Notes: generated from the sequence alone by a model not told the origin. Shown: positions 369 to 22,440, counted from the stretch's first letter. The stretch is DNA of 64,000 bases from a virus (IMGVR_UViG_3300031998_000010); one strand, 5' to 3'. Translations and numbers: made by a program.

Positions 369-425
369 ACCTGGTACCTCTTGTACTTTTGATGTATAGA
401 TACTTACACATAGTATAACGATTCT

Positions 426-2992: not shown

Positions 2993-3017
2993 GTTTGCCT
3001 CTAACCATATGAAAGGT

Positions 3018-3058
3018 GGGAGGCTCAACCTCCCTTGTCGGAGTATTTCCGAGTTCCC
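3018..3058 (-). ncRNA. two-hairpin motif copy 1 (GGGAAC-stem-CAA-GGAGG TTGAG CCTCC)
   Basis: second copy at 3301-3349 with compensatory changes in the first stem. Confidence 0.55.
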
Positions 3059-3260
3059 TCTATTTCATTTGTATACCGCAAATATGAGGTGAATGGATTA
3101 TTGCAATTCTCCAATGCGGTTTTGTTACGCAAGATTGTCATCTCTTTATTTCCTAGCACCGTAACATGTACTGTGTATCTTCCCTTATCGAAGTAAGATA
3201 TAAGTACGCCTCATTGTCGTTGAAGGTACGTCTCGTTGTGACATGAGGTGAGATGACCTC

Positions 3261-3298
3261 TGGTGATAGGTTTTTAATAAGCTACCTATCAAACTTAT
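3261..3298 (-). ncRNA. NCCA-ended H-type pseudoknot, copy A
   Basis: ATAAG TTT GATAGGT AG CTTAT TAAAA ACCTATC ACCA. Confidence 0.75.
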
Positions 3299-3300
3299 CT

Positions 3301-3349
3301 GGAGGCTCAACCTCCTTTGTTAGAGTTATCAGGTATTCTCTAAGTTCCC
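3301..3349 (-). ncRNA. two-hairpin motif copy 2
   Basis: GGGAAC TTAGAG..CTCTAA CAA AGGAGG TTGAG CCTCC. Confidence 0.55.
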
Positions 3350-3547
3350 GCTACCCAAACCTGATTAGCACAAGGACGGTGTTAGGCTGTGAAAACGGTG
3401 GGTGACTAATCCTTTTGGCATTTAGGAAACCGTGACTCCCTTTTATTCATACTCTTTGTTTTACAAGGCGATGCCTACCTTTAGCACTATATCGATGCCA
3501 CCCGCTGAAGTTTCGCAGTCACGCAAGGTATTCAGAATATACCTTTT

Positions 3548-3662
3548 TGGTGAAGAAGGATAGGATTTGCACCTATCAGCGATAACATTCCTAGCCTGAC
3601 TCAACCTCATTGTGAGTAGTTATCATTACAGGATAACCTGTCTGCTATTCCAGCACTTCTTC
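3548..3662 (-). ncRNA. tRNA-like RNA (Tyr-type GTA anticodon arm, ~42-nt variable region, 6-bp T stem)
   Basis: acceptor GAAGAAG/CTTCTTC+ACCA; D arm CTG..CAG; TTATC-CTGTAAT-GATAA; T arm GATAGG-TGCAAAT-CCTATC; 115 nt. Confidence 0.7.
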
Positions 3663-3776
3663 ATATAACAGTTTTCATATTGAAAACTTCGGCTTTACCT
3701 ATAAAAGTCACACCCTCGACGCGGAGTGTACGGAATTTCTTATTGAAATGTCTAAAGTCACGTCTATATGACGATT

Positions 3777-3927
3777 TGGTGAAGTAGAGAGGATTCGAAC
3801 CTCTATGTCCTTGATATTGCACCTGCACCCCCAAGAGTCGAACTTGGAGATAGCCGAACTCGAATCGACTCTCACTCAGACTCGTTACTACCGTTCACTT
3901 AGCATTCACCCACTCTGCCACTACTTC
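3777..3927 (-). ncRNA. tRNA-like RNA with two extra internal T-loop hairpins
   Basis: acceptor GAAGTAG/CTACTTC+ACCA; D arm GCA GAGTGGGTGAA TGC; T arm AGAGG-TTCGAAT-CCTCT; 151 nt; no canonical anticodon arm. Confidence 0.7.
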
Positions 3928-4088
3928 ATATAATGCAGATTTGTTTATCGTAAACCTCTTAGGTCACGTTCACCCGTATGAATACTGTTAGAAGTTCTGC
4001 TTCTCCTAGGTACTGCCGTTATTTCGTGTGCTATACCGTATCTCCACGCTAAGATTTTTCTAGAAGAGGTACTTAGGATTAACCTCAT

Positions 4089-4162
4089 TGGCAAGAACAC
4101 AAGGATTTGAACCCTGACTAGCGGTTTTGGAGACCGATGTGCTACCGTTACACCATGTCCTT
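4089..4162 (-). tRNA. trnW: tRNA-Trp (CCA)
   Basis: 74-nt cloverleaf; acceptor AAGGACA/TGTTCTT, anticodon loop CT-CCA-AA, T loop TTCAAAT, encoded 3' GCCA. Confidence 0.92.
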
Positions 4163-4350
4163 GTATTTGCAAAGATTGCTTTGGCGTTGCTTATAAAATA
4201 ATCAGAACCCTAGGCATACGATTATTTTGGTCAGATGTCTTTGCGGTCATCTCAGTAGATTAGAGTTCTACCATCTCGATTTCCTTGCTTTCGGAGACTG
4301 AAATCAACTCCGCTTGTGTATTTAGCCGAGGAACACAAGAAAAACCTTAT

Positions 4351-4447
4351 TGGTGAAGTAGGTTAGGACTCGAACCTAACAGCTTTCGGATAGTTTTCCG
4401 TCATAATAATTATGACCACCTCGCGTCTACCTTTGCGCCACTACTCC
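4351..4447 (-). ncRNA. tRNA-like RNA (Leu/Tyr-type D arm, non-canonical anticodon domain)
   Basis: GGAGTAG/CTACTTC+ACCA; TGGCGCAAAGGTAGACGCG; T arm GTTAGG-TTCGAGT-CCTAAC; 97 nt. Confidence 0.7.
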
Positions 4448-4553
4448 ATATTTTAGTATAACCAAGCCATCTCCCAACAGTTATACTGTACTCCGCACCG
4501 TCCGATTTCTACAACCTCGGTCAAGGGTTTTGACTAGACGGAGTGTCCCAATT

Positions 4554-4649
4554 TGTGAAGTAGGTTAGGATTTGAACCTAACTTAGATATAAATATCCCA
4601 TCCAAATTCTATAAGAATCCGACTGCGTATGCCATTCCGCCACTACTTC
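4554..4649 (-). ncRNA. tRNA-like RNA (Leu-type D arm, elongated anticodon helix)
   Basis: GAAGTAG/CTACTTC+ACA; TGGCGGAATGGCATACGCA; T arm GTTAGG-TTCAAAT-CCTAAC. Confidence 0.68.
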
Positions 4650-4820
4650 ATATCTAATGTGAGTGTGGAGAATCCCCCGAAGTCATCTGCCTCTTCGTAT
4701 TTCCATGTCATTAGGTAGCACTCACAACTACCTGACACTCTAACGGCGAGTGACTACCGCCCTACTGCTCGACATAATCTGCTAAAGAGATTAGCCTTTG
4801 CGCTAACGCAGTATAGGAAT

Positions 4821-4905
4821 TGGCAAGATGGTTCAAGCGTCAGGGCGCGAACCCTCCGTTACTCTCATTTAAGTTAGTACGAACTTGAACGAACTAACCC
4901 ATCTT
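4821..4905 (-). ncRNA. acceptor-stem + GCCA RNA with two internal hairpins
   Basis: AAGATGG/CCATCTT 7-bp stem + GCCA; internal GTTAG..CTAAC and AGGG-TTCGCG-CCCT. Confidence 0.6.
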
Positions 4906-4942
4906 TGGTAATAGGTTTTAAAGAGATACCTATATAAACTCT
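4906..4942 (-). ncRNA. NCCA-ended pseudoknot, copy B
   Basis: AGAG TTTAT ATAGGT AT CTCT TTAAA ACCTAT T ACCA. Confidence 0.65.
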
Positions 4943-5033
4943 TGGTGGGAGTGGCTTATAGTCATATTTGCAAACCCTTGTTTCTCCAAATATTCGTATG
5001 ATATCCTACGAGATATTCAGATTGACTACTCCC
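4943..5033 (-). ncRNA. acceptor-stem + ACCA RNA
   Basis: GGGAGT/ACTCCC + ACCA; begins directly after the CCA of pseudoknot copy C. Confidence 0.55.
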
Positions 5034-5071
5034 TGGTGATAGGTTTTTAGACAAGAACCTACCAAACTTGC
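5034..5071 (-). ncRNA. NCCA-ended pseudoknot, copy C
   Basis: GCAAG TTT GGTAGGTT CTTGT CTAAA AACCTATC ACCA. Confidence 0.75.
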
Positions 5072-5187
5072 GTAGACAATGAAGCAACTATCACTCTACG
5101 GCGGCTCATATTCATTTATATAGCACTCCGAATCTCTTAATAAAGATTAACCTCGTCGGGTTGGTTGCATAGCCATCCGAGTGCTTT

Positions 5188-5223
5188 TGGTGATAAGTTT
5201 TTGAAGAGAACCTACCAAACTCT
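5188..5223 (-). ncRNA. NCCA-ended pseudoknot, copy D
   Basis: AGAG TTT GGTAGGTT CTCT TCAAA AACTTATC ACCA. Confidence 0.75.
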
Positions 5224-5285
5224 ATTCAAGGCACGTTGTGTTTCACTTGCTTTTATATTTTATGTATAATTGCTGTATGTGCCTT

Positions 5286-5323
5286 TGGCGATAGATTTTT
5301 AATAAGAATCTACCAAACTTACT
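5286..5323 (-). ncRNA. NCCA-ended pseudoknot, copy E
   Basis: AGTAAG TTT GGTAGATT CTTATT AAA AATCTATC GCCA. Confidence 0.75.
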
Positions 5324-5331
5324 ATTAAATT

Positions 5332-5340
5332 ATCAAGGTT
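5332..5340 (-). promoter_or_regulatory. AACCTT-class (late-type) promoter heading the RNA array
   Basis: AACCTTGAT about 8 nt upstream of pseudoknot copy E; same core recurs upstream of structural genes. Confidence 0.55.
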
Positions 5341-5343
5341 CAC

Positions 5344-5461
5344 ATATAACCGCCAACCCTCAAATCAGAAGATACCAATATCTGTATGTGGTGACATTTC
5401 AAGCGATAAGGCTATATATTGGCTATATCCACACCCCTAATTTGAGGGGTGGCGGTTACAT
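5344..5461 (-). ncRNA. putative ~120-nt structured RNA
   Basis: 24-bp terminal stem (one mismatch, G.U pairs valid on minus strand) starting just after AATCGTTATA at 5466-5475. Confidence 0.55.
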
Positions 5462-5473
5462 ATATTATAACGA

Positions 5474-5629
5474 TTATCCTTTCGGTTCTTTTTTCATCGG
5501 GTTTTCGATGAAATGGTCTTCTTTATGCAAAAGACAAGAAGTAAGTTCTGCATCGTTCAGACAACATACTGAATGTAATCCGTTTTCCGAAACTACTGTC
5601 CTTGCGTTTAAACATCTATCGCATCGCAT
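5474..5629 (-). CDS. small Cys-rich hypothetical protein (51 aa)
   Basis: hand-translated MRCDRCLNAR...; AAGGAGG RBS; AATCGTTAT upstream. Confidence 0.65.
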   Translation of the reverse strand: MRCDRCLNARTVVSENGLHSVCCLNDAELTSCLLHKEDHFIENPMKKEPKG

Positions 5630-5659
5630 TGTTATATCCTCCTTCAGATATAATAACGA

Positions 5660-5860
5660 TTACAACGATAGATAATCATTCTTTCCGTCGTTGAAACCTT
5701 CACTATATCCATCTTCTTCAGCTTCTTGAATAAGCTGATTAAACAACTCAACGGCATCTGAACCTAATTTCTGCTCAATAATATTTCCAAATTCTACTCT
5801 ATCACTTGAATTTGATTCTGTAAAAAATTTATCGCCGTCTTTTGTTTCAAGATAGAACAT
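5660..5860 (-). CDS. hypothetical protein
   Basis: ORF track; AAGGAG RBS. Confidence 0.7.
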   Translation of the reverse strand: MFYLETKDGDKFFTESNSSDRVEFGNIIEQKLGSDAVELFNQLIQEAEEDGYSEGFNDGKNDYLSL

Positions 5861-9133: not shown

Positions 9134-10888
9134 TTATTCCTCCTGATTCTTTACAAAATAATTCATTTGTTTATTCCAATACCTAATCCATTCATCTAAT
9201 GTACTCTGAACATCTGATGTCTGGTTAGGATATGCATAATCAATGCAATCTAAATACATATTTACTAACGATTTGATTGTCTCAAGGCTACCCTGGAATT
9301 CATATTTTTGAACCGGAACATAATCACAAGGAAAGTCTAACTGCGGAACTGTGCCTTGTTTCTCTACAAGTAATTCACCCAATGTATCAATCTCTTCGAT
9401 AAGTTCCTTATACATGTCTTCTGCTAAGATATGTAATTTCATCATATCATTTCCAGATGACATCCAATGTATTATGTAGAGATTTCTATAGGCTCTGATT
9501 GCTGCTTTGAATACTTCGCATAAACTAGCACAAGGGTCACATTCACAAGCTTCACAAGGCTCAATATCAAAGCCTTCGTCATCTACTTCAATAGTAAATG
9601 ATTGAGGCTCTTCTGTTAATACAGAAATAAAGTCATCTTGATTAATTATCTCATCAATATCGCTTAAAGTTTCGCTAGGTTGATAATTAGAATTTAATGC
9701 TAATATTGATAAGTCATCAGATGCTTGAACCTTCTTTAGTGTTATACTGATATGCTTACTGCTGTTCAAATCTTCATCGCCTCCATTCGGATTTCCTGAA
9801 CCATCGTCGGAAGGATTTCCTTGGTCGTCGGGAGGATTGCCCTCACCATTTTGGTCTCCTTCTTCCTCAGATTCTTCATATTTTGCATTGTGGTCTATAA
9901 TAGTATCTAAAGATGTTTCTTCGTTAAGTTTCTTTTGATACAAATCACGTAACTGAGCTTGTATCTCTATTAATATAGGCAATACAAGAACATTAGCAAT
10001 ACGTTCTGTATTTTGTTCATTAGCCTTCTTTTCTTCAGCACTCAATTGCTCAGCTACTATAGCTTCTTTATCAATTTGAGTAGATTCATTTACTTCAGAA
10101 GGTTTATGACGAGATTCAACAAATGCAATATATTTTGATACCCATTTTGCACAATCAATTAATTTCTGATTAGTTACTTTTCCTGCGTCATCATTAGCAG
10201 TTTCACACATCAATGTATATCTTAATTCTCTAGTTGCTATTGACTTCCAATATCCTACTTTCACGTATCCTTGAGTTTGAAAGTCTTTTTGAGCTACTTT
10301 TTGCAAGTTAACCCCAAGGAAACCTCCCTCAACTCCTCCATCAGCTCCCTTCTTCATAGCTGTAGCTAATGAAATATCACCTACATATTGTCCATTGTCA
10401 AGTTTTAGAGCAGTGTCACCGATAAGAAATTTAAGTTTAGTAACAACATCTTTTGACTTTATGTGCACCTGTCCGGACTGTTGAGCTTTTTGCTTTGCTT
10501 TTTGATTCTTTTTTCTTTGATTTCTAGAACGAGCTTCTATTTCAGTAGAAGCACTTGCTTCGTCATCGATATCTTCATCATCGGGATTAGTAGGAACTTC
10601 CTCATCTTTGTTAATTCCACTAAATAATGAATTATAGTCTAAGTTATTGATTACATTTGTATATTGCTTAAAAACACTACCAACATTTGTAGCAGTTAAA
10701 TCTACTCTAACGTCAACTTTTTCTCCGTTGATGTCAGTAGTAATGACCATAGAGTTTGTAACTCCGCCTTGACGCTCAGTAACTTTGTTATTTGTAACTG
10801 AATAACCGTCAATAAAATTATCAAATAATTTGAATAGTTTAGATATTATAGATTTTATACCATTCAATGCAGATGACTCATTTGCCAT
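9134..10888 (-). CDS. large head-associated protein with C-terminal Dps/ferritin-like domain
   Basis: YRNLYIIHWMSSGNDMMKLHILAEDMYKELIEEIDTLGE matches Dps HW..G....LH...E..Y......D...E pattern. Confidence 0.7.
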   Translation of the reverse strand: MANESSALNGIKSIISKLFKLFDNFIDGYSVTNNKVTERQGGVTNSMVITTDINGEKVDVRVDLTATNVGSVFKQYTNVINNLDYNSLFSGINKDEEVPTNPDDEDIDDEASASTEIEARSRNQRKKNQKAKQKAQQSGQVHIKSKDVVTKLKFLIGDTALKLDNGQYVGDISLATAMKKGADGGVEGGFLGVNLQKVAQKDFQTQGYVKVGYWKSIATRELRYTLMCETANDDAGKVTNQKLIDCAKWVSKYIAFVESRHKPSEVNESTQIDKEAIVAEQLSAEEKKANEQNTERIANVLVLPILIEIQAQLRDLYQKKLNEETSLDTIIDHNAKYEESEEEGDQNGEGNPPDDQGNPSDDGSGNPNGGDEDLNSSKHISITLKKVQASDDLSILALNSNYQPSETLSDIDEIINQDDFISVLTEEPQSFTIEVDDEGFDIEPCEACECDPCASLCEVFKAAIRAYRNLYIIHWMSSGNDMMKLHILAEDMYKELIEEIDTLGELLVEKQGTVPQLDFPCDYVPVQKYEFQGSLETIKSLVNMYLDCIDYAYPNQTSDVQSTLDEWIRYWNKQMNYFVKNQEE

Positions 10889-20475: not shown

Positions 20476-22338
20476 TCATGTTGATTTCCAATCCCAAGTT
20501 ATTGTACCAGAGTCAAATACTTGTATGCACTTGTGTAAATCTACCATCTGCTGTGTTACTTCGCTAGCTTCAATAGCCTGATTATCAGAATTTCTTATCC
20601 ACACACCCTGTTCATCATTGATAGAGACTTCTTTGAATCCCAATGTATAATACAGCTTGCTACTAGCATAAGCCCTATCTGAAGTTGTTATAATATCAGT
20701 AGGACTGTATTCAGAGATAAACTGCTTAAATAATTTGGAAGCACCTCCAACTACGCAAGTATTAAGCTTACTTGCTAACCTAGTTATTTCATATCTATCT
20801 GTATGCTTAATTGCAATTACTTGAATTAGCTCATCCTGATTATAAAGTCCGTAGTGTATGTTGGAATCGCTATATCCTTTAAGATGATTATTCTCTAAAA
20901 ACTTCTTAGCTTCTTCTGAAGACACTTTACAACACTTACACTTACTGGCATGTATCTTATCACTACAACCCAAAATGTTTCGCAACATAGATGTGATAAT
21001 GTTTTTCTTATGAGCCCACTCATATCCGAATATATGAAATAGATGTATTCCTGAAGCTTCACATAAGTCTGTTTTCATTTTATGATAAGTTGAAGGTAGA
21101 GGAGTATCTCCATATGCAGTATATGTAGAATTATGAGTACCCGTAGGATTCATCTCAATTGCTACATTGTACTCAGGTAGATACACATCAAGCTCATAGG
21201 GACTGATAAGAAATCTATTATGTTGTTGAATCTCTAAATCAGGCTTGATATCTTTCAGTATAGCTATGAGCTCTTCTTCAAAATAAGAAAATACTTTATG
21301 TTCAACTAAATCTAGTTTATCTTCATTAGTTAAGAATACTTCAATAGAATGTTCACTAACACCCAATGTAACTTTCAGTTCAGCTATATTGGGTTTATGG
21401 TCAAAATGAGCAGAAATAAAATCTTCAGGGTCACTTAGAAACTGTTTATAATTTTCAGATTTGCTTGGGTCAACCATAATAGATTCACGATGGTTCCAGG
21501 AAGCAGTATAAGAATTAGCTCCATATTTATTTTGGTTAGTTTGTATTAGTTTTGCTTTGACTTTTTGAGACTGAATGGGATGCTCTACACCATATTTTTG
21601 CTTTGATGTTTGTTTAATCTTGCTTTTTATCTTTTCACTTTGAAATACATTATCGACACCATATCGGTCTCGCACAGTATCAATTCGCTTAGCAATAACT
21701 TGAGGAGACTGCAAATGATATCTAACACCATACTTCCTTCTAACAGTATTCGCGTATTTTTTAATGTAGTCATCAGTTTGAGTATACCACTCAACTCCAT
21801 ATTTCTGTTTATTAGTCTCTTTTATCTTATCAATAACTCCAGGAATCTGAAAAGGGTTCTCAACACCTTCGCCATATTTAGCTTGAAGATTTTCTTTCTG
21901 ATGCTGTATAGCAGCTGCTTTATCTGTATGTTGTTGAGCTAAGATATAACGACATTCATCAGAACAAGTTTTATTAGGCTCACGATGAGGGTCATATTCA
22001 AACTGCTTACCGCATAATTCGCAAGTACTGTAATGAGGACCTTCGCAATATTCTTCTCTAATATATCTAGGATGAAACTCTTTTCCGCAACATTTGCACT
22101 TCTTAGTCAACTTACTCCCAGATTCAACTTGACGACGTTTTATTAATTCAACACCACATGCATCACTACAAGTTTTCTTCTGAGGCACTGTAGAACACAC
22201 TCTATCCATTAAATTTCCGCATATTACACAAGGAACTTTAATCGGCCTGTTGCAATTCATCTGACGAGTAGACGTAGGATGAAATGATTGCCCACATACT
22301 TGACATATCTTTGTATAATCAGGACTAAGTTTACTCAT
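20476..22338 (-). CDS. Hef-like homing endonuclease: Zn-finger repeats, KYG repeats, PD-(D/E)xK nuclease, GNAT-like C-terminus
   Basis: CxxC repeats; KYG(V) repeats; ELDVYLPEYNVAIE; FLENNHLKG..YEITRLAS..VVGGASKLF..SDR. Confidence 0.7.
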   Translation of the reverse strand: MSKLSPDYTKICQVCGQSFHPTSTRQMNCNRPIKVPCVICGNLMDRVCSTVPQKKTCSDACGVELIKRRQVESGSKLTKKCKCCGKEFHPRYIREEYCEGPHYSTCELCGKQFEYDPHREPNKTCSDECRYILAQQHTDKAAAIQHQKENLQAKYGEGVENPFQIPGVIDKIKETNKQKYGVEWYTQTDDYIKKYANTVRRKYGVRYHLQSPQVIAKRIDTVRDRYGVDNVFQSEKIKSKIKQTSKQKYGVEHPIQSQKVKAKLIQTNQNKYGANSYTASWNHRESIMVDPSKSENYKQFLSDPEDFISAHFDHKPNIAELKVTLGVSEHSIEVFLTNEDKLDLVEHKVFSYFEEELIAILKDIKPDLEIQQHNRFLISPYELDVYLPEYNVAIEMNPTGTHNSTYTAYGDTPLPSTYHKMKTDLCEASGIHLFHIFGYEWAHKKNIITSMLRNILGCSDKIHASKCKCCKVSSEEAKKFLENNHLKGYSDSNIHYGLYNQDELIQVIAIKHTDRYEITRLASKLNTCVVGGASKLFKQFISEYSPTDIITTSDRAYASSKLYYTLGFKEVSINDEQGVWIRNSDNQAIEASEVTQQMVDLHKCIQVFDSGTITWDWKST

Positions 22339-22440
22339 GATTAACACCTCCTATATCTATATTATAGTATAGAATGGTGCAAAAATAAATGGTATATTTA
22401 TAAACTCAGCGTTATTTGGTTAAATTCAAACAAAATAAAA

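What the first reader, a model, noticed from the sequence alone, without database searches (positions are those of the whole stretch)
3015..5340. A 2.3-kb polycistronic tRNA-mimic RNA operon
Seen: a minus-strand interval with no credible CDS, headed by a late-type promoter. It carries 1 canonical tRNA, 4 tRNA shells, 5 pseudoknot-NCCA units, 2 stem+NCCA units, a duplicated two-hairpin motif and several other paired blocks; 11 encoded NCCA ends in total. Units abut with 0-nt spacing at 4905/4906, 4942/4943 and 5033/5034. Known: phage tRNA arrays counter tRNA-targeting defences (anticodon nucleases PrrC/RloC/PARIS; toxSAS/CapRel modify the 3' CCA). Inference: a battery of non-decoding decoy or scaffold RNAs released by host tRNA-processing enzymes. 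I recognise no named family for it.
Basis: partly seen in the sequence, partly recalled or inferred. Interest (0 to 1): 0.9.

Follow-up and report, generated by a model that had tools for sequence, protein, structure and literature searches.

The report
Phage operon of tRNA-mimic RNAs
A large uncultured gut or rumen-type phage carries a 2.4-kb gene-free stretch that encodes about twenty small folded RNAs, in which tRNA look-alikes that cannot decode alternate with conserved RNAs of unknown function, probably so that the host's tRNA-trimming enzymes cut the transcript into pieces.

Summary
On the minus strand, 5475-3015 has no credible ORF and is GC-enriched. It holds one real tRNA-Trp, four tRNA-Leu-derived "shells" with no decoding arm, and five copies of a ~40-nt H-type pseudoknot ending in RCCA. 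It also holds two acceptor-stem-closed RNAs ending NCCA and about nine other structured modules. I counted 11 encoded NCCA ends and three 0-nt junctions.

Homologous modules occur in at least 12 other uncultured phage lineages, in shuffled order. They are often better conserved than the proteins: up to 93% identity, against 66% for a flanking protein. Covariation supports both helices of the pseudoknot, module X, module Z', the shell acceptor stems and unit U.

Only the tRNA model of Rfam matches. The nearest known things are the unexplained "tRNA-like stable RNAs" of the phage T5 and T4 tRNA regions. For the pseudoknot, the nearest is the repeated knot of the cyanophage wcaG motif, which the Rfam model itself does not detect here.

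My best reading is a tRNA-punctuated array: tRNA-end handles recruit RNase P and CCA-end maturation to release and stabilise cargo RNAs. The decoy idea is untested, and the "late-type promoter" is not supported. This scan has noted related elements before on other phage DNA.

The parts
5459..5475 (-). Promoter-like motif AATCGTTATAATATATG, the probable head of the operon
   Evidence: This is a perfect copy of a motif found 9 times in the window at <=3 mismatches, against 1.4 expected. The same motif stands ahead of the homologous operon in L210.
5347..5452 (-). 5' leader element: a long, roughly 17-bp closing stem
   Evidence: Fold energy is -40.6 kcal/mol, z = -3.88, and 0 of 200 shuffles fold as well.
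5286..5325 (-). P1, an H-type pseudoknot ending GCCA
   Evidence: CM R1 scores 56.5 bits. S1 is 7 bp.
5227..5285 (-). Cargo hairpin H-A: a 7-bp closing stem around an A/U-rich interior
   Evidence: z = -2.95. Partly matched in L191 and L192.
5188..5227 (-). P2, a pseudoknot ending ACCA
   Evidence: CM R1 scores 56.4 bits.
5075..5187 (-). Cargo module M2, a three-way junction plus a 3' domain
   Evidence: 79-82% identical in G003 and G004, and also present in L210. 31 pairs are predicted, 3 of them with changes on both sides. In G004 it follows tRNA-Lys directly.
5034..5074 (-). P3, a pseudoknot ending ACCA; it abuts U with 0 nt between
   Evidence: CM R1 scores 54.6 bits.
4943..5033 (-). U: an RNA closed by a 6-bp acceptor-like stem, then A + CCA
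   Evidence: z = -2.90. The G001 homologue keeps the closing stem through two double changes and also ends ACCA.
4906..4945 (-). P4, a degenerate pseudoknot ending ACCA
   Evidence: CM R1 scores 43.8 bits. It has a 7-bp S2 with an offset.
4821..4905 (-). V: an 85-nt RNA with a 7-bp terminal stem, then G + CCA
   Evidence: Found in the stem scan. The fold is weak, z = -1.27. No homologue was found.
4650..4820 (-). Cargo module W
   Evidence: 72-73% identical in L184 and L191.
4553..4649 (-). Shell S1 (ARAGORN 'tRNA-Ile tat'); it ends ACAA, not CCA
   Evidence: It has the shell frame GAAGTAG / Leu-like D arm / 6-bp T stem.
4448..4552 (-). Spacer or cargo with no detected homologue
   Evidence: z = -0.09. 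No match in the relatives.
4351..4447 (-). Shell S2, ending ACCA
4163..4350 (-). Spacer or cargo with no detected homologue
   Evidence: No match in the relatives.
4089..4162 (-). Canonical tRNA-Trp(CCA) with an encoded GCCA end
   Evidence: ARAGORN. Rfam RF00005 at 58.9 bits.
3928..4088 (-). Cargo module X: a 5' hairpin, a pseudoknot and a second hairpin, followed by about 85 nearly invariant nt
   Evidence: Found in 10 distinct lineages, always between an NCCA-type end and the 5' end of a shell. 95.7% of cells are paired, 7 pairs change on both sides, and 0 of 500 shuffles reach the covariation score.
3777..3927 (-). Shell S3, whose insert carries two extra T-arm-like hairpins; ends ACCA
   Evidence: Rfam tRNA at 36.7 bits with an 88-nt insert. 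76-81% identical in G001, L184 and L186, with a compensated inner T-arm.
3663..3776 (-). Spacer or cargo, weakly structured
   Evidence: z = -0.90. No homologue.
3548..3662 (-). Shell S4, ending ACCA
   Evidence: The acceptor stem GAAGAAG/CTTCTTC becomes GAAGGGT/ACCCTTC in G001, G003, L184 and L191.
3302..3547 (-). Cargo module Y, ending in two-hairpin motif copy 1
   Evidence: 83% identical in G001, with a compensated hairpin. The 3' part is also in L192, G004 and L191. L210 carries a visibly similar stretch in the same array, read by eye.
3261..3301 (-). P5, a pseudoknot ending ACCA
   Evidence: CM R1 scores 51.8 bits.
3015..3260 (-). Cargo module Z. Its 3' part, Z' (3140-3015), includes two-hairpin motif copy 2
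   Evidence: Z' is conserved in 9 lineages. 26 pairs are predicted, 12 of them with changes on both sides.

Best explanation
The stretch 5475-3015 (minus strand) is probably one transcription unit of a large myovirus-like phage. It encodes about 20 small structured RNAs and no protein.

Two kinds of unit alternate along it.

**1. tRNA-end handles.**
- One real tRNA-Trp.
- Four shells that keep the acceptor stem, the tRNA-Leu-like D arm and the T arm, but carry unrelated domains where the anticodon arm should be.
- Five H-type pseudoknots. Their two helices (4-7 bp and 8 bp) would stack into a helix of about 12 bp that ends in R-CCA, like the acceptor/T-arm of a tRNA.
- Two RNAs closed by acceptor-like stems.

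**2. Cargo RNAs with no tRNA features:** X, Z', M2, W, Y and others.

**Inferred mechanism.** Host RNase P cuts at the 5' side of each handle, where the signature is U at -1, G at +1 and RCCA. The host's 3' trimming and CCA-repair enzymes then define and protect the CCA ends. The transcript would fall into discrete, stable RNAs, as in tRNA punctuation.

**Shown:** the units exist, are conserved, covary, and behave as separate shuffled modules.

**Inferred:** transcription as a single RNA, and processing by RNase P and the CCA machinery.

**Unknown:** what the released mimics and cargo RNAs act on.
For: **Non-coding and compositionally distinct.**

**Modules are shared and shuffled.** The same modules occur in another order in G001, G003, G004, G008/L009, L183-L186, L191, L192, L195 and L210. 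Nucleotide identity reaches 93%, while a flanking protein is 66% identical.

**P-unit structure.**
- S2 is 94.3% paired, and 6 of 8 pairs change on both sides.
- In S1, one pair reads AU 11 / GC 10 / GU 2 / CG 1 with none unpaired, and 0 of 500 shuffles reach the covariation score.
- Frequent G-U pairs fix the RNA strand as the minus strand.

**P-unit ends.** U at -1 in 26 of 27 copies. G at +1 in 25 of 27. Discriminator A in 22 and G in 3. CCA in 24-27 of 27.

**Documented precedent.** H-type pseudoknots with a 3' RCCA are cleaved by bacterial RNase P in loop 1, and U at -1 is favoured (PMC12710915).

**P-units are specific to RNA arrays.** In complete genomes they occur only inside tRNA/RNA arrays.

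**Module X.** In 10 of 10 lineages it begins directly after a tRNA-like 3' end and stops at the 5' end of a shell. Its structure covaries.

**Other covariation.** Z' and M2 covary. Shell acceptor stems vary by full compensation, for example CATTCGG/CCGAATG.

**One transcript is plausible.** No internal copy of the promoter-like motif and no convincing minus-strand terminator lies inside the interval.
Against:
- Several cargo segments have no homologue and fold no better than shuffles: 4552-4448, 4350-4163 and 3776-3663. They may be mere spacers.
- Module X as a whole also folds no better than shuffles, z = -0.08.
- Many shells in relatives end ACAA, ACTA, ATTA or ACCG rather than ACCA, and some P-units in L210 end CCG. 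An encoded CCA is therefore not strictly required.
- A 3-nt loop 1 spanning an 8-bp helix is tight.
- The host, and so its RNase P type, is not known. The only hints are two MAG contigs labelled Clostridia and Christensenellaceae and capsid relatives at 25-27% identity in Bacillota phages.
Confidence: 0.55

Rival explanations
1. Decoy battery. The CCA-ended mimics soak up host defence toxins that attack tRNA acceptor ends, such as CapRel/toxSAS or the MenT/AbiEii nucleotidyltransferases, or they titrate tRNA-binding enzymes. This would spare the real tRNAs. It is compatible with the processing model, since it concerns what the released RNAs do afterwards.
For: - There are 11 encoded NCCA ends and five copies of one acceptor-end mimic in a single operon.
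- The window keeps only one decoding tRNA, whereas the relatives keep 4-6.
- Phage tRNAs that counter PARIS are discussed in PMC11455837, which only listed.
Against: - No defence or counter-defence gene is linked to the operon.
- The shells lack an anticodon loop, so they cannot decoy anticodon nucleases.
- CCA is often replaced in relatives.
- The idea does not explain the conserved cargo RNAs that have no tRNA features.
Confidence: 0.2
2. tRNA scaffolds. The functional parts are the domains inserted inside the shells, and sometimes inside P-units. The tRNA frame serves only to stabilise and process them. The stretches between handles are then leaders and spacers.
For: - Shells of 87-192 nt share one frame but carry unrelated inserts.
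- One P-unit carries a 50-nt insert in loop 3 (L136 5724-5817), and another sits inside a shell (L009 911-953).
- An earlier scan note, e1-5666514, reads them this way.
Against: The inter-handle modules X, Z' and M2 are at least as conserved as the shell inserts, and they covary. They are not mere spacers.
Confidence: 0.15
3. One large composite RNA, of the GOLLD, ROOL or OLE kind, that works unprocessed.
For: It is a long, ORF-free, GC-enriched, highly structured region in a phage next to tRNAs.
Against: - The modules occur in different orders, numbers and genomic places in the relatives, and are split by protein genes in G001, G003 and G004.
- There is no Rfam match to ROOL or GOLLD at E <= 10.
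Confidence: 0.05
4. A decaying tRNA array of pseudogenes, or DNA-level repeats such as promoters, protein-binding sites or recombination sites.
For: - The shells clearly derive from tRNA-Leu.
- A sigma-70-like match overlaps P1.
Against: - Non-tRNA parts are up to 93% conserved across phages whose proteins are 66% identical.
- The helices keep pairing through compensatory changes and strand-specific G-U pairs.
- The would-be -10 element loses its A2 in G001, and the spacing to any -35 element is inconsistent between copies.
Confidence: 0.04

Closest known systems
Stable RNAs of the phage T5 tRNA region (RNA1, RNA2, RNA3, RNAI, III, IV, 2H, X; NC_005859 annotation). From my own memory, also phage T4 species 1 and 2 RNAs (rnaC, rnaD).
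   Same: They are non-decoding RNAs interleaved with tRNA genes, and some are annotated 'tRNA-like stable RNA with unknown functions'. T5 RNA1 folds with an acceptor stem, a tRNA-Leu-like D arm, a T arm and an expanded middle, like the shells here.
   Different: No sequence similarity was found. T5 has no P-unit. Here the mimics and cargo dominate, with 1 tRNA among about 20 units, and they form shared modular families across rumen-type phages.
wcaG RNA motif (Rfam RF01761; Weinberg et al. 2010, PMC2864571), a cyanophage and marine RNA of unknown function
   Same: Its second half has the same H-type topology and the same conserved loops as the P-unit: S1 5' strand, UUU, a 6-bp stem, S1 3' strand, an A-rich loop, then the stem (consensus and two examples printed). 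Its first half fits the consensus only loosely. It occurs in phages and lies near tRNA genes in Syn9 and S-PM2.
   Different: - RF01761 does not score the P-units; only noise of 11 bits or less appears elsewhere.
- My P-unit model does not score wcaG.
- wcaG is a tandem pair around a central hairpin and ends UGG, not RCCA.
- wcaG was proposed to be a cis-regulator, whereas the P-units are single, dispersed and CCA-tailed.
Pseudoknotted acceptor arm of plant-virus tRNA-like structures (TYMV and TMV TLS)
   Same: An H-type pseudoknot builds a tRNA-like acceptor helix ending in CCA. It is an RNase P substrate with U at -1 (PMC12710915).
   Different: The plant-virus element is the 3' end of an RNA virus genome and carries an anticodon-arm mimic and aminoacylation identity. 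The P-unit is about 40 nt, has the acceptor arm only, and sits in a DNA phage. No Rfam TLS family matches it.
Theta (HDV-like) ribozymes next to phage tRNAs (PMC10879173)
   Same: A structured RNA lies directly 3' of phage tRNAs and is thought to define the tRNA 3' end. Module X always starts at the base after an NCCA-type end.
   Different: Only 4.5% of theta-associated tRNAs encode CCA, whereas here nearly all do. X lacks the nested double pseudoknot, since it has no P3 between the two strands. No HDV family matches it. Self-cleavage was not tested.
tRNA punctuation of polycistronic transcripts (mitochondria; MALAT1-mascRNA) and the engineered tRNA scaffold. All of this is from my own knowledge, not checked here.
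   Same: tRNA-shaped elements act as processing marks and stabilisers for neighbouring or embedded RNAs.
   Different: Those systems release mRNAs or rRNAs, or are man-made. Here a phage would use the device for a set of unknown ncRNAs, with a minimal pseudoknot as an extra mark.

Membership tests
tRNA (RF00005) | A cloverleaf with a 7-nt anticodon loop, scoring above 29 bits | tested here: met
   Met only for tRNA-Trp at 4162-4089, with 58.9 bits. S3 reaches 36.7 bits but has 88 nt in place of the anticodon arm. S1 is called Ile(tat) by ARAGORN, but it is type-II-like, has a 3-nt loop in the minimum-energy fold and ends ACAA. S2, S4, U, V and the P-units are not called.
T5-type tRNA-like stable RNA | An acceptor stem, D arm and T arm kept, with the middle expanded or replaced, located in a phage tRNA region | tested here: met
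   Shell table and folds, compared with the fold of T5 RNA1 and the T5 annotation. This is a descriptive class, not a curated family.
T5-type tRNA-like stable RNA | Detectable sequence homology to T5 RNA1 or RNA2 | tested here: not met
   blastn against 50,697 phage records matched only tRNA-Trp.
wcaG RNA (RF01761) | Rfam covariance model score of at least 42 bits | tested here: not met
   No hit at E <= 10 on the region, on a 61-nt stretch around P3, or at the P-unit sites of five related records. True wcaG RNAs score 74-79 bits.
wcaG RNA (RF01761) | Unit topology: S1, then UUU, then S2, then an A-rich loop 3 | tested here: met
   Judged by inspecting the consensus and two cyanophage examples against the covarying P-unit helices. 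The second wcaG half matches well; the first half matches only loosely. This is resemblance by inspection, not a statistical test.
Plant-virus tRNA-like structure (for example Tymo_tRNA-like) | A pseudoknotted acceptor arm ending in CCA | tested here: met
Plant-virus tRNA-like structure (for example Tymo_tRNA-like) | An anticodon-arm mimic with aminoacylation identity, and an Rfam match | tested here: not met
   The P-unit consists only of the acceptor-arm mimic. No Rfam TLS family matches at E <= 10.
HDV-like / theta ribozyme | A nested double pseudoknot (P1, P1.1, P2, P3, P4) with a catalytic C, placed 3' of CCA-less tRNAs | tested here: not met
   X has only 1 nt between its pseudoknot strand and the return strand of H1, so there is no P3. 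No HDV family matches. The neighbouring tRNAs encode CCA.
ROOL, GOLLD, type III antitoxin RNAs (ToxI-like), tmRNA | A match to the Rfam model; for ToxI, tandem repeats next to a toxin gene | tested here: not met
   No hit at the gathering score or at E <= 10, except a spurious permuted-tmRNA match at 13.7 bits against a cut-off of 47. ARAGORN finds no tmRNA. The repeats are dispersed, and no ToxN-like gene is nearby.
RNase P substrate | Cleavage by RNase P at the U(-1)/G(+1) junction, dependent on the 3' RCCA | not testable with these tools
   Only the sequence signature was tallied. The published precedent comes from a paper.

The most novel reading that the evidence does not exclude
Phage tRNA arrays serve as a general launch pad for new functional RNAs. 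In this operon the host tRNA machinery would release at least eight undescribed RNA families. Module X, with its 5' pseudoknot, its roughly 85-nt invariant core and its fixed position at the base after an NCCA end, would be a new catalytic or target-binding RNA, for example one that defines or guards CCA ends. The CCA-tailed pseudoknots would be working acceptor-arm mimics, that is, RNase P or CCA-enzyme substrates that also blunt acceptor-end toxins.
Probability: 0.15. Interest if true: 0.85.

Novelty: new variant of a known kind. Interest (0 to 1): 0.68.

Why it matters
Non-decoding stable RNAs in phage tRNA clusters have been known since the work on T4 and T5, yet their function has never been explained. 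This locus is an extreme case, with one tRNA among about twenty units. It comes with enough relatives to define several covarying families: the CCA-tailed pseudoknot, X, Z', M2 and the Leu-type shells. That makes the old question testable through end mapping, RNase P and CCA-enzyme assays, and defence-rescue assays in laboratory strains.

If the punctuation model holds, the roughly 40-nt pseudoknot is a compact natural processing tag. It would also link the cyanophage wcaG motif, which was proposed to be a riboswitch, to tRNA-array biology.

Tried and rejected
**Wasted scans.**
- A 14-mer scan of viral contigs returned more than 119 stretches with no visible relation to the locus.
- A mis-specified repeat pattern found nothing.

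**Synteny around the flanking SbcC-like gene.** The two relatives found have dense ORFs there, and the RNA modules lie elsewhere in G001.

**Alternative structures for the P-unit.**
- A lower stem TTTGG/CCAAA with a bulge is rejected. The G004 and G001 copies compensate in the contiguous 8-9-bp stem instead.
- Pairing of UUU with the loop's AAAAA is not pursued. Both are invariant, so it cannot be tested, and it is sterically awkward. The real second helix is leader-NNAG with CUNN.

**P-units as promoters.** Rejected. There is no consistent -35 spacing, the A2 of the would-be -10 is lost in G001, and the stem is compensated.

**X as a small protein gene.** In the window it opens with ATG and runs 50 codons. 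However, G001 lacks the ATG, a 1-nt indel shifts the frame in most lineages, and the invariant half shows no third-position drift. Rejected.

**X as an HDV-like or theta ribozyme.** The topology does not fit (see the membership test).

**Thermodynamic stability as a criterion.** Several conserved modules, including X and M2, fold no better than shuffles. It is therefore not a useful filter here.

**Gene context.**
- A CCA-adding enzyme is present only in the 467-kb phage G008, not in G001 or G004.
- The neighbouring proteins are HTH regulators, a metallophosphoesterase and a sigma-r4/alpha-CTD-like protein, which is not informative.


Full report
**What the window is.** PHROG matches give a major head protein, a head maturation protease, tail and baseplate proteins, an HNH homing endonuclease and an SbcC-like ATPase. 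Nearly all genes lie on the minus strand, so this is a large tailed phage. Its capsid protein is only 25-27% identical to those of Bacillus, Streptococcus and Listeria myophages. No whole genome is held for it.

**The observation.**
- Between about 5475 and 3015 there is no ORF longer than 75 aa on either strand.
- GC rises to 0.41-0.45, from 0.30-0.36 in the flanks.
- ARAGORN finds tRNA-Trp(CCA) at 4162-4089 and calls 4649-4555 a 95-nt 'tRNA-Ile(tat)'.
- Rfam at gathering score finds only tRNA-Trp. At E <= 10 it adds 3927-3780 as a tRNA whose anticodon arm is replaced by 88 nt (36.7 bits). Nothing else credible appears: no ROOL, GOLLD, antitoxin RNA, ribozyme or TLS.
- Reading the strand and folding the units gives the inventory listed under 'parts'.
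- A naive count of stems closing before NCCA is only about 1.7 sd above shuffles. The case therefore rests on comparative evidence.

**Relatives.**
- The flanking SbcC-like protein led to two IMG/VR phages at 66-67% identity, but they have no RNA cluster at that position.
- Searching their whole records with the 2.4-kb stretch showed that the 200-kb phage G001 carries the same modules in two ORF-free regions, in a different order. Identities are 93% (X), 83% (Y), 81% (S3), 77% (Z') and 72% (S4).
- Pattern scans added G003, G004, the 467-kb phage G008 (L009), L183 (a 23-tRNA array) and L184.
- A metagenome scan with the invariant core of X added six more lineages, for ten distinct X-bearing lineages in all.
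- A scan of prokaryotic genomes found the same array on MAG contigs labelled Clostridia (L210) and Christensenellaceae (L211). This is a weak hint at the host.
- A coverage map shows that most of the interval has homologues in 1-10 other lineages. The exceptions are 4950-4825, 4550-4455, 4345-4175, 3775-3700 and 3250-3210.

**The 36-40-nt repeat (P-unit).** A covariance model built from 13 copies finds 29 copies in the loci I held, always on the RNA strand of tRNA/RNA arrays. In the 64-kb window it finds only the five copies inside this interval. In complete genomes it finds 1-4 copies, all within such arrays.

Two helices are supported:
- The 8-bp stem S2 is 94.3% paired, 6 of its 8 pairs change on both sides, and it has many G-U pairs, which fix the strand.
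- A second helix, S1, pairs the leader ...NNAG with the CUNN that directly follows the 5' strand of S2. One pair reads AU 11, GC 10, GU 2 and CG 1 with none unpaired. No shuffle of 500 reaches the covariation score.

The order S1-5', UUU, S2-5', S1-3', an A-rich loop, S2-3' is a classical H-type pseudoknot. S1 (3-7 bp) plus S2 (8 bp) would stack to about 12-13 bp, the length of a tRNA acceptor/T-arm helix. The knot is followed by a purine and then CCA.

The tallies are U at -1 in 26 of 27 copies, G at +1 in 25 of 27, discriminator A in 22 and G in 3, and CCA in 24-27 of 27.

Bacterial RNase P is documented to cut H-type pseudoknots in loop 1 when they carry a 3' RCCA, to prefer U at -1, and to cut the TYMV tRNA-like structure (PMC12710915). 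That the P-units are RNase P substrates is therefore a reasoned inference, not a result.

**Relation to wcaG.**
- Rfam RF01761 does not score the P-units.
- My model does not score true wcaG RNAs.
- The wcaG consensus and the copies in cyanophages Syn9 and S-PM2 (74-79 bits) do show the same topology in the second half of wcaG: S1 CUGG/CCAG, loop 1 UUU, a 6-bp stem and an A-rich loop 3. The first half fits the consensus only loosely. The tail is UGG instead of RCCA.

So the P-unit folds like a wcaG unit, but membership by the curated model is not met.

**The shells.** A scan for a T arm plus a complementary acceptor stem across all lineages shows one frame:
- the leader (t)atat;
- the acceptor GAAGTAG, with fully compensated variants GAAGGGT, GAAGAAG, GAAGCAG and CATTCGG;
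- a D arm close to that of the phages' own tRNA-Leu;
- a 6-bp T stem;
- discriminator A.

Total lengths run from 87 to 192 nt, and the middles are unrelated. Tails are mostly ACCA but also ACAA, ACTA, ATTA and ACCG. The annotated T5 RNA1, a 'tRNA-like stable RNA with unknown functions', folds the same way with a Leu-like D arm. This class is therefore an old, unexplained one.

**The cargo modules.**
- X (4088-3928) begins at the base after a tRNA-like 3' end in 10 of 10 lineages. That end belongs to a tRNA-Trp, a tRNA-Lys, a shell or a P-unit. X always stops at the 5' end of a shell.
- Its 5' hairpin, a pseudoknot between that hairpin's loop and a downstream strand, and a second hairpin all covary. 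95.7% of cells are paired, 7 pairs change on both sides, and 0 of 500 shuffles reach the covariation score.
- Its 3' 85 nt are almost invariant. It is not coding, because the frame is not kept.
- Z' has 12 of 26 predicted pairs with changes on both sides across five lineages.
- M2 has a conserved three-way junction and follows tRNA-Lys directly in G004.
- U keeps its closing stem through two double changes in G001.
- V and three inter-unit stretches have no homologue, so they remain unproven.

**Organisation.** Handles and cargo alternate along the whole interval. Each conserved cargo is bracketed by an NCCA-type end on its 5' side and by the 5' end of the next handle on its 3' side.

A promoter-like motif recurs 9 times in the window, against 1.4 expected, and it stands ahead of the L210 operon. 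It lies at 5475-5459 and is followed by a strong 5' hairpin with z = -3.88. No further copy of the motif and no convincing minus-strand terminator lies inside. The next ORF starts at 2991.

The sigma-70-like match at 5336-5307 has its -10 element inside P1, whose S1 helix would then not be transcribed. I do not support the 'late-type promoter'.

**Interpretation.** The evidence shows a modular, conserved, covarying array of small RNAs. The most economical mechanism is tRNA punctuation: RNase P at each handle's 5' side, with 3' trimming and CCA repair at each CCA, would release stable mimics and cargo RNAs.

The decoy idea stays open, but it fits only acceptor-end toxins and does not explain the cargo. 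Pseudogene decay, DNA-level repeats and a single giant RNA are each contradicted. The evidence against them is conservation above protein level, compensatory and G-U pairing, and the shuffled order of modules.

**Novelty.** This scan has already noted related CCA-ended mini-RNAs, shells and pseudoknots in other uncultured phages. In print, the T5 and T4 stable RNAs and the wcaG motif are the precedents. I found no paper that describes CCA-tailed pseudoknots or these cargo families.

I rate this as a new variant of a known but unexplained kind. It is of solid interest because it makes the question testable.

Noticed in passing
L181 3210-2922 (minus), phage G003: A tRNA-Leu(UAA) gene is split in its anticodon loop by a group I intron of about 195 nt (Rfam RF00028, 54.3 bits, E 4.7e-11). 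Its 3' exon ends ACCA directly in front of that phage's M2 copy. ARAGORN misses it.
   Followed up: partly
window 407-423, 2518-2534, 5459-5475, 5645-5661, 9257-9273, all on the minus strand: A recurrent motif AATCGTTAT(A/T)AT... occurs 9 times at <=3 mismatches, against 1.4 expected. It is probably this phage's own promoter class, and it has no obvious -35 element.
   Followed up: partly
L136 5724-5817 and L009 911-953: One P-unit carries a 50-nt hairpin insert in loop 3. Another P-unit sits inside the variable middle of a shell. The pseudoknot therefore tolerates cargo and can itself be cargo.
   Followed up: no
L182 4243-4183 (minus), phage G004: A P-unit ends ACCA and is followed within 3 nt by a Shine-Dalgarno sequence (AAGGAGG) and the ATG of a 165-aa ORF. 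The knot could separate the RNA array from a downstream mRNA.
   Followed up: no
L210 150-2000 (minus), a MAG contig labelled Clostridia: The same array is present: tRNA-Leu, three P-units, M2, a shell, Z', Y and tRNA-Tyr. Here several ends read CCG instead of CCA, and a small ORF is embedded in the array.
   Followed up: partly
L136 2263-2343 and L182 3554-3650: ARAGORN reports tRNA-like genes with four-base 'anticodons' (tttc and ctcg) in G001 and G004. They may be further shells or odd tRNAs.
   Followed up: no
L215 1501-1595 and L216 1501-1600 (cyanophages Syn9 and S-PM2): The wcaG RNAs of both cyanophages lie close to tRNA genes, about 95 nt upstream of one in S-PM2. That would fit a role in the tRNA array better than a riboswitch role.
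   Followed up: no
window 3777-3927: The insert of shell S3 holds two further T-arm-like hairpins, each a 5-bp stem with a 7-nt TTCGAGT or TTCGACT loop. One of them is kept through compensatory changes in G001.
   Followed up: partly
window 20476-22347 (minus): A 623-aa HNH homing-endonuclease-like ORF lies directly downstream of the major head protein gene.
   Followed up: no
window 3019-3035, 3301-3315, 3600-3612, 4070-4091, 5138-5159: A short motif (G)AGGTTRA(G) recurs in hairpin loops or stems of several different modules (families D7, D10 and D12). Its meaning is unknown.
   Followed up: no
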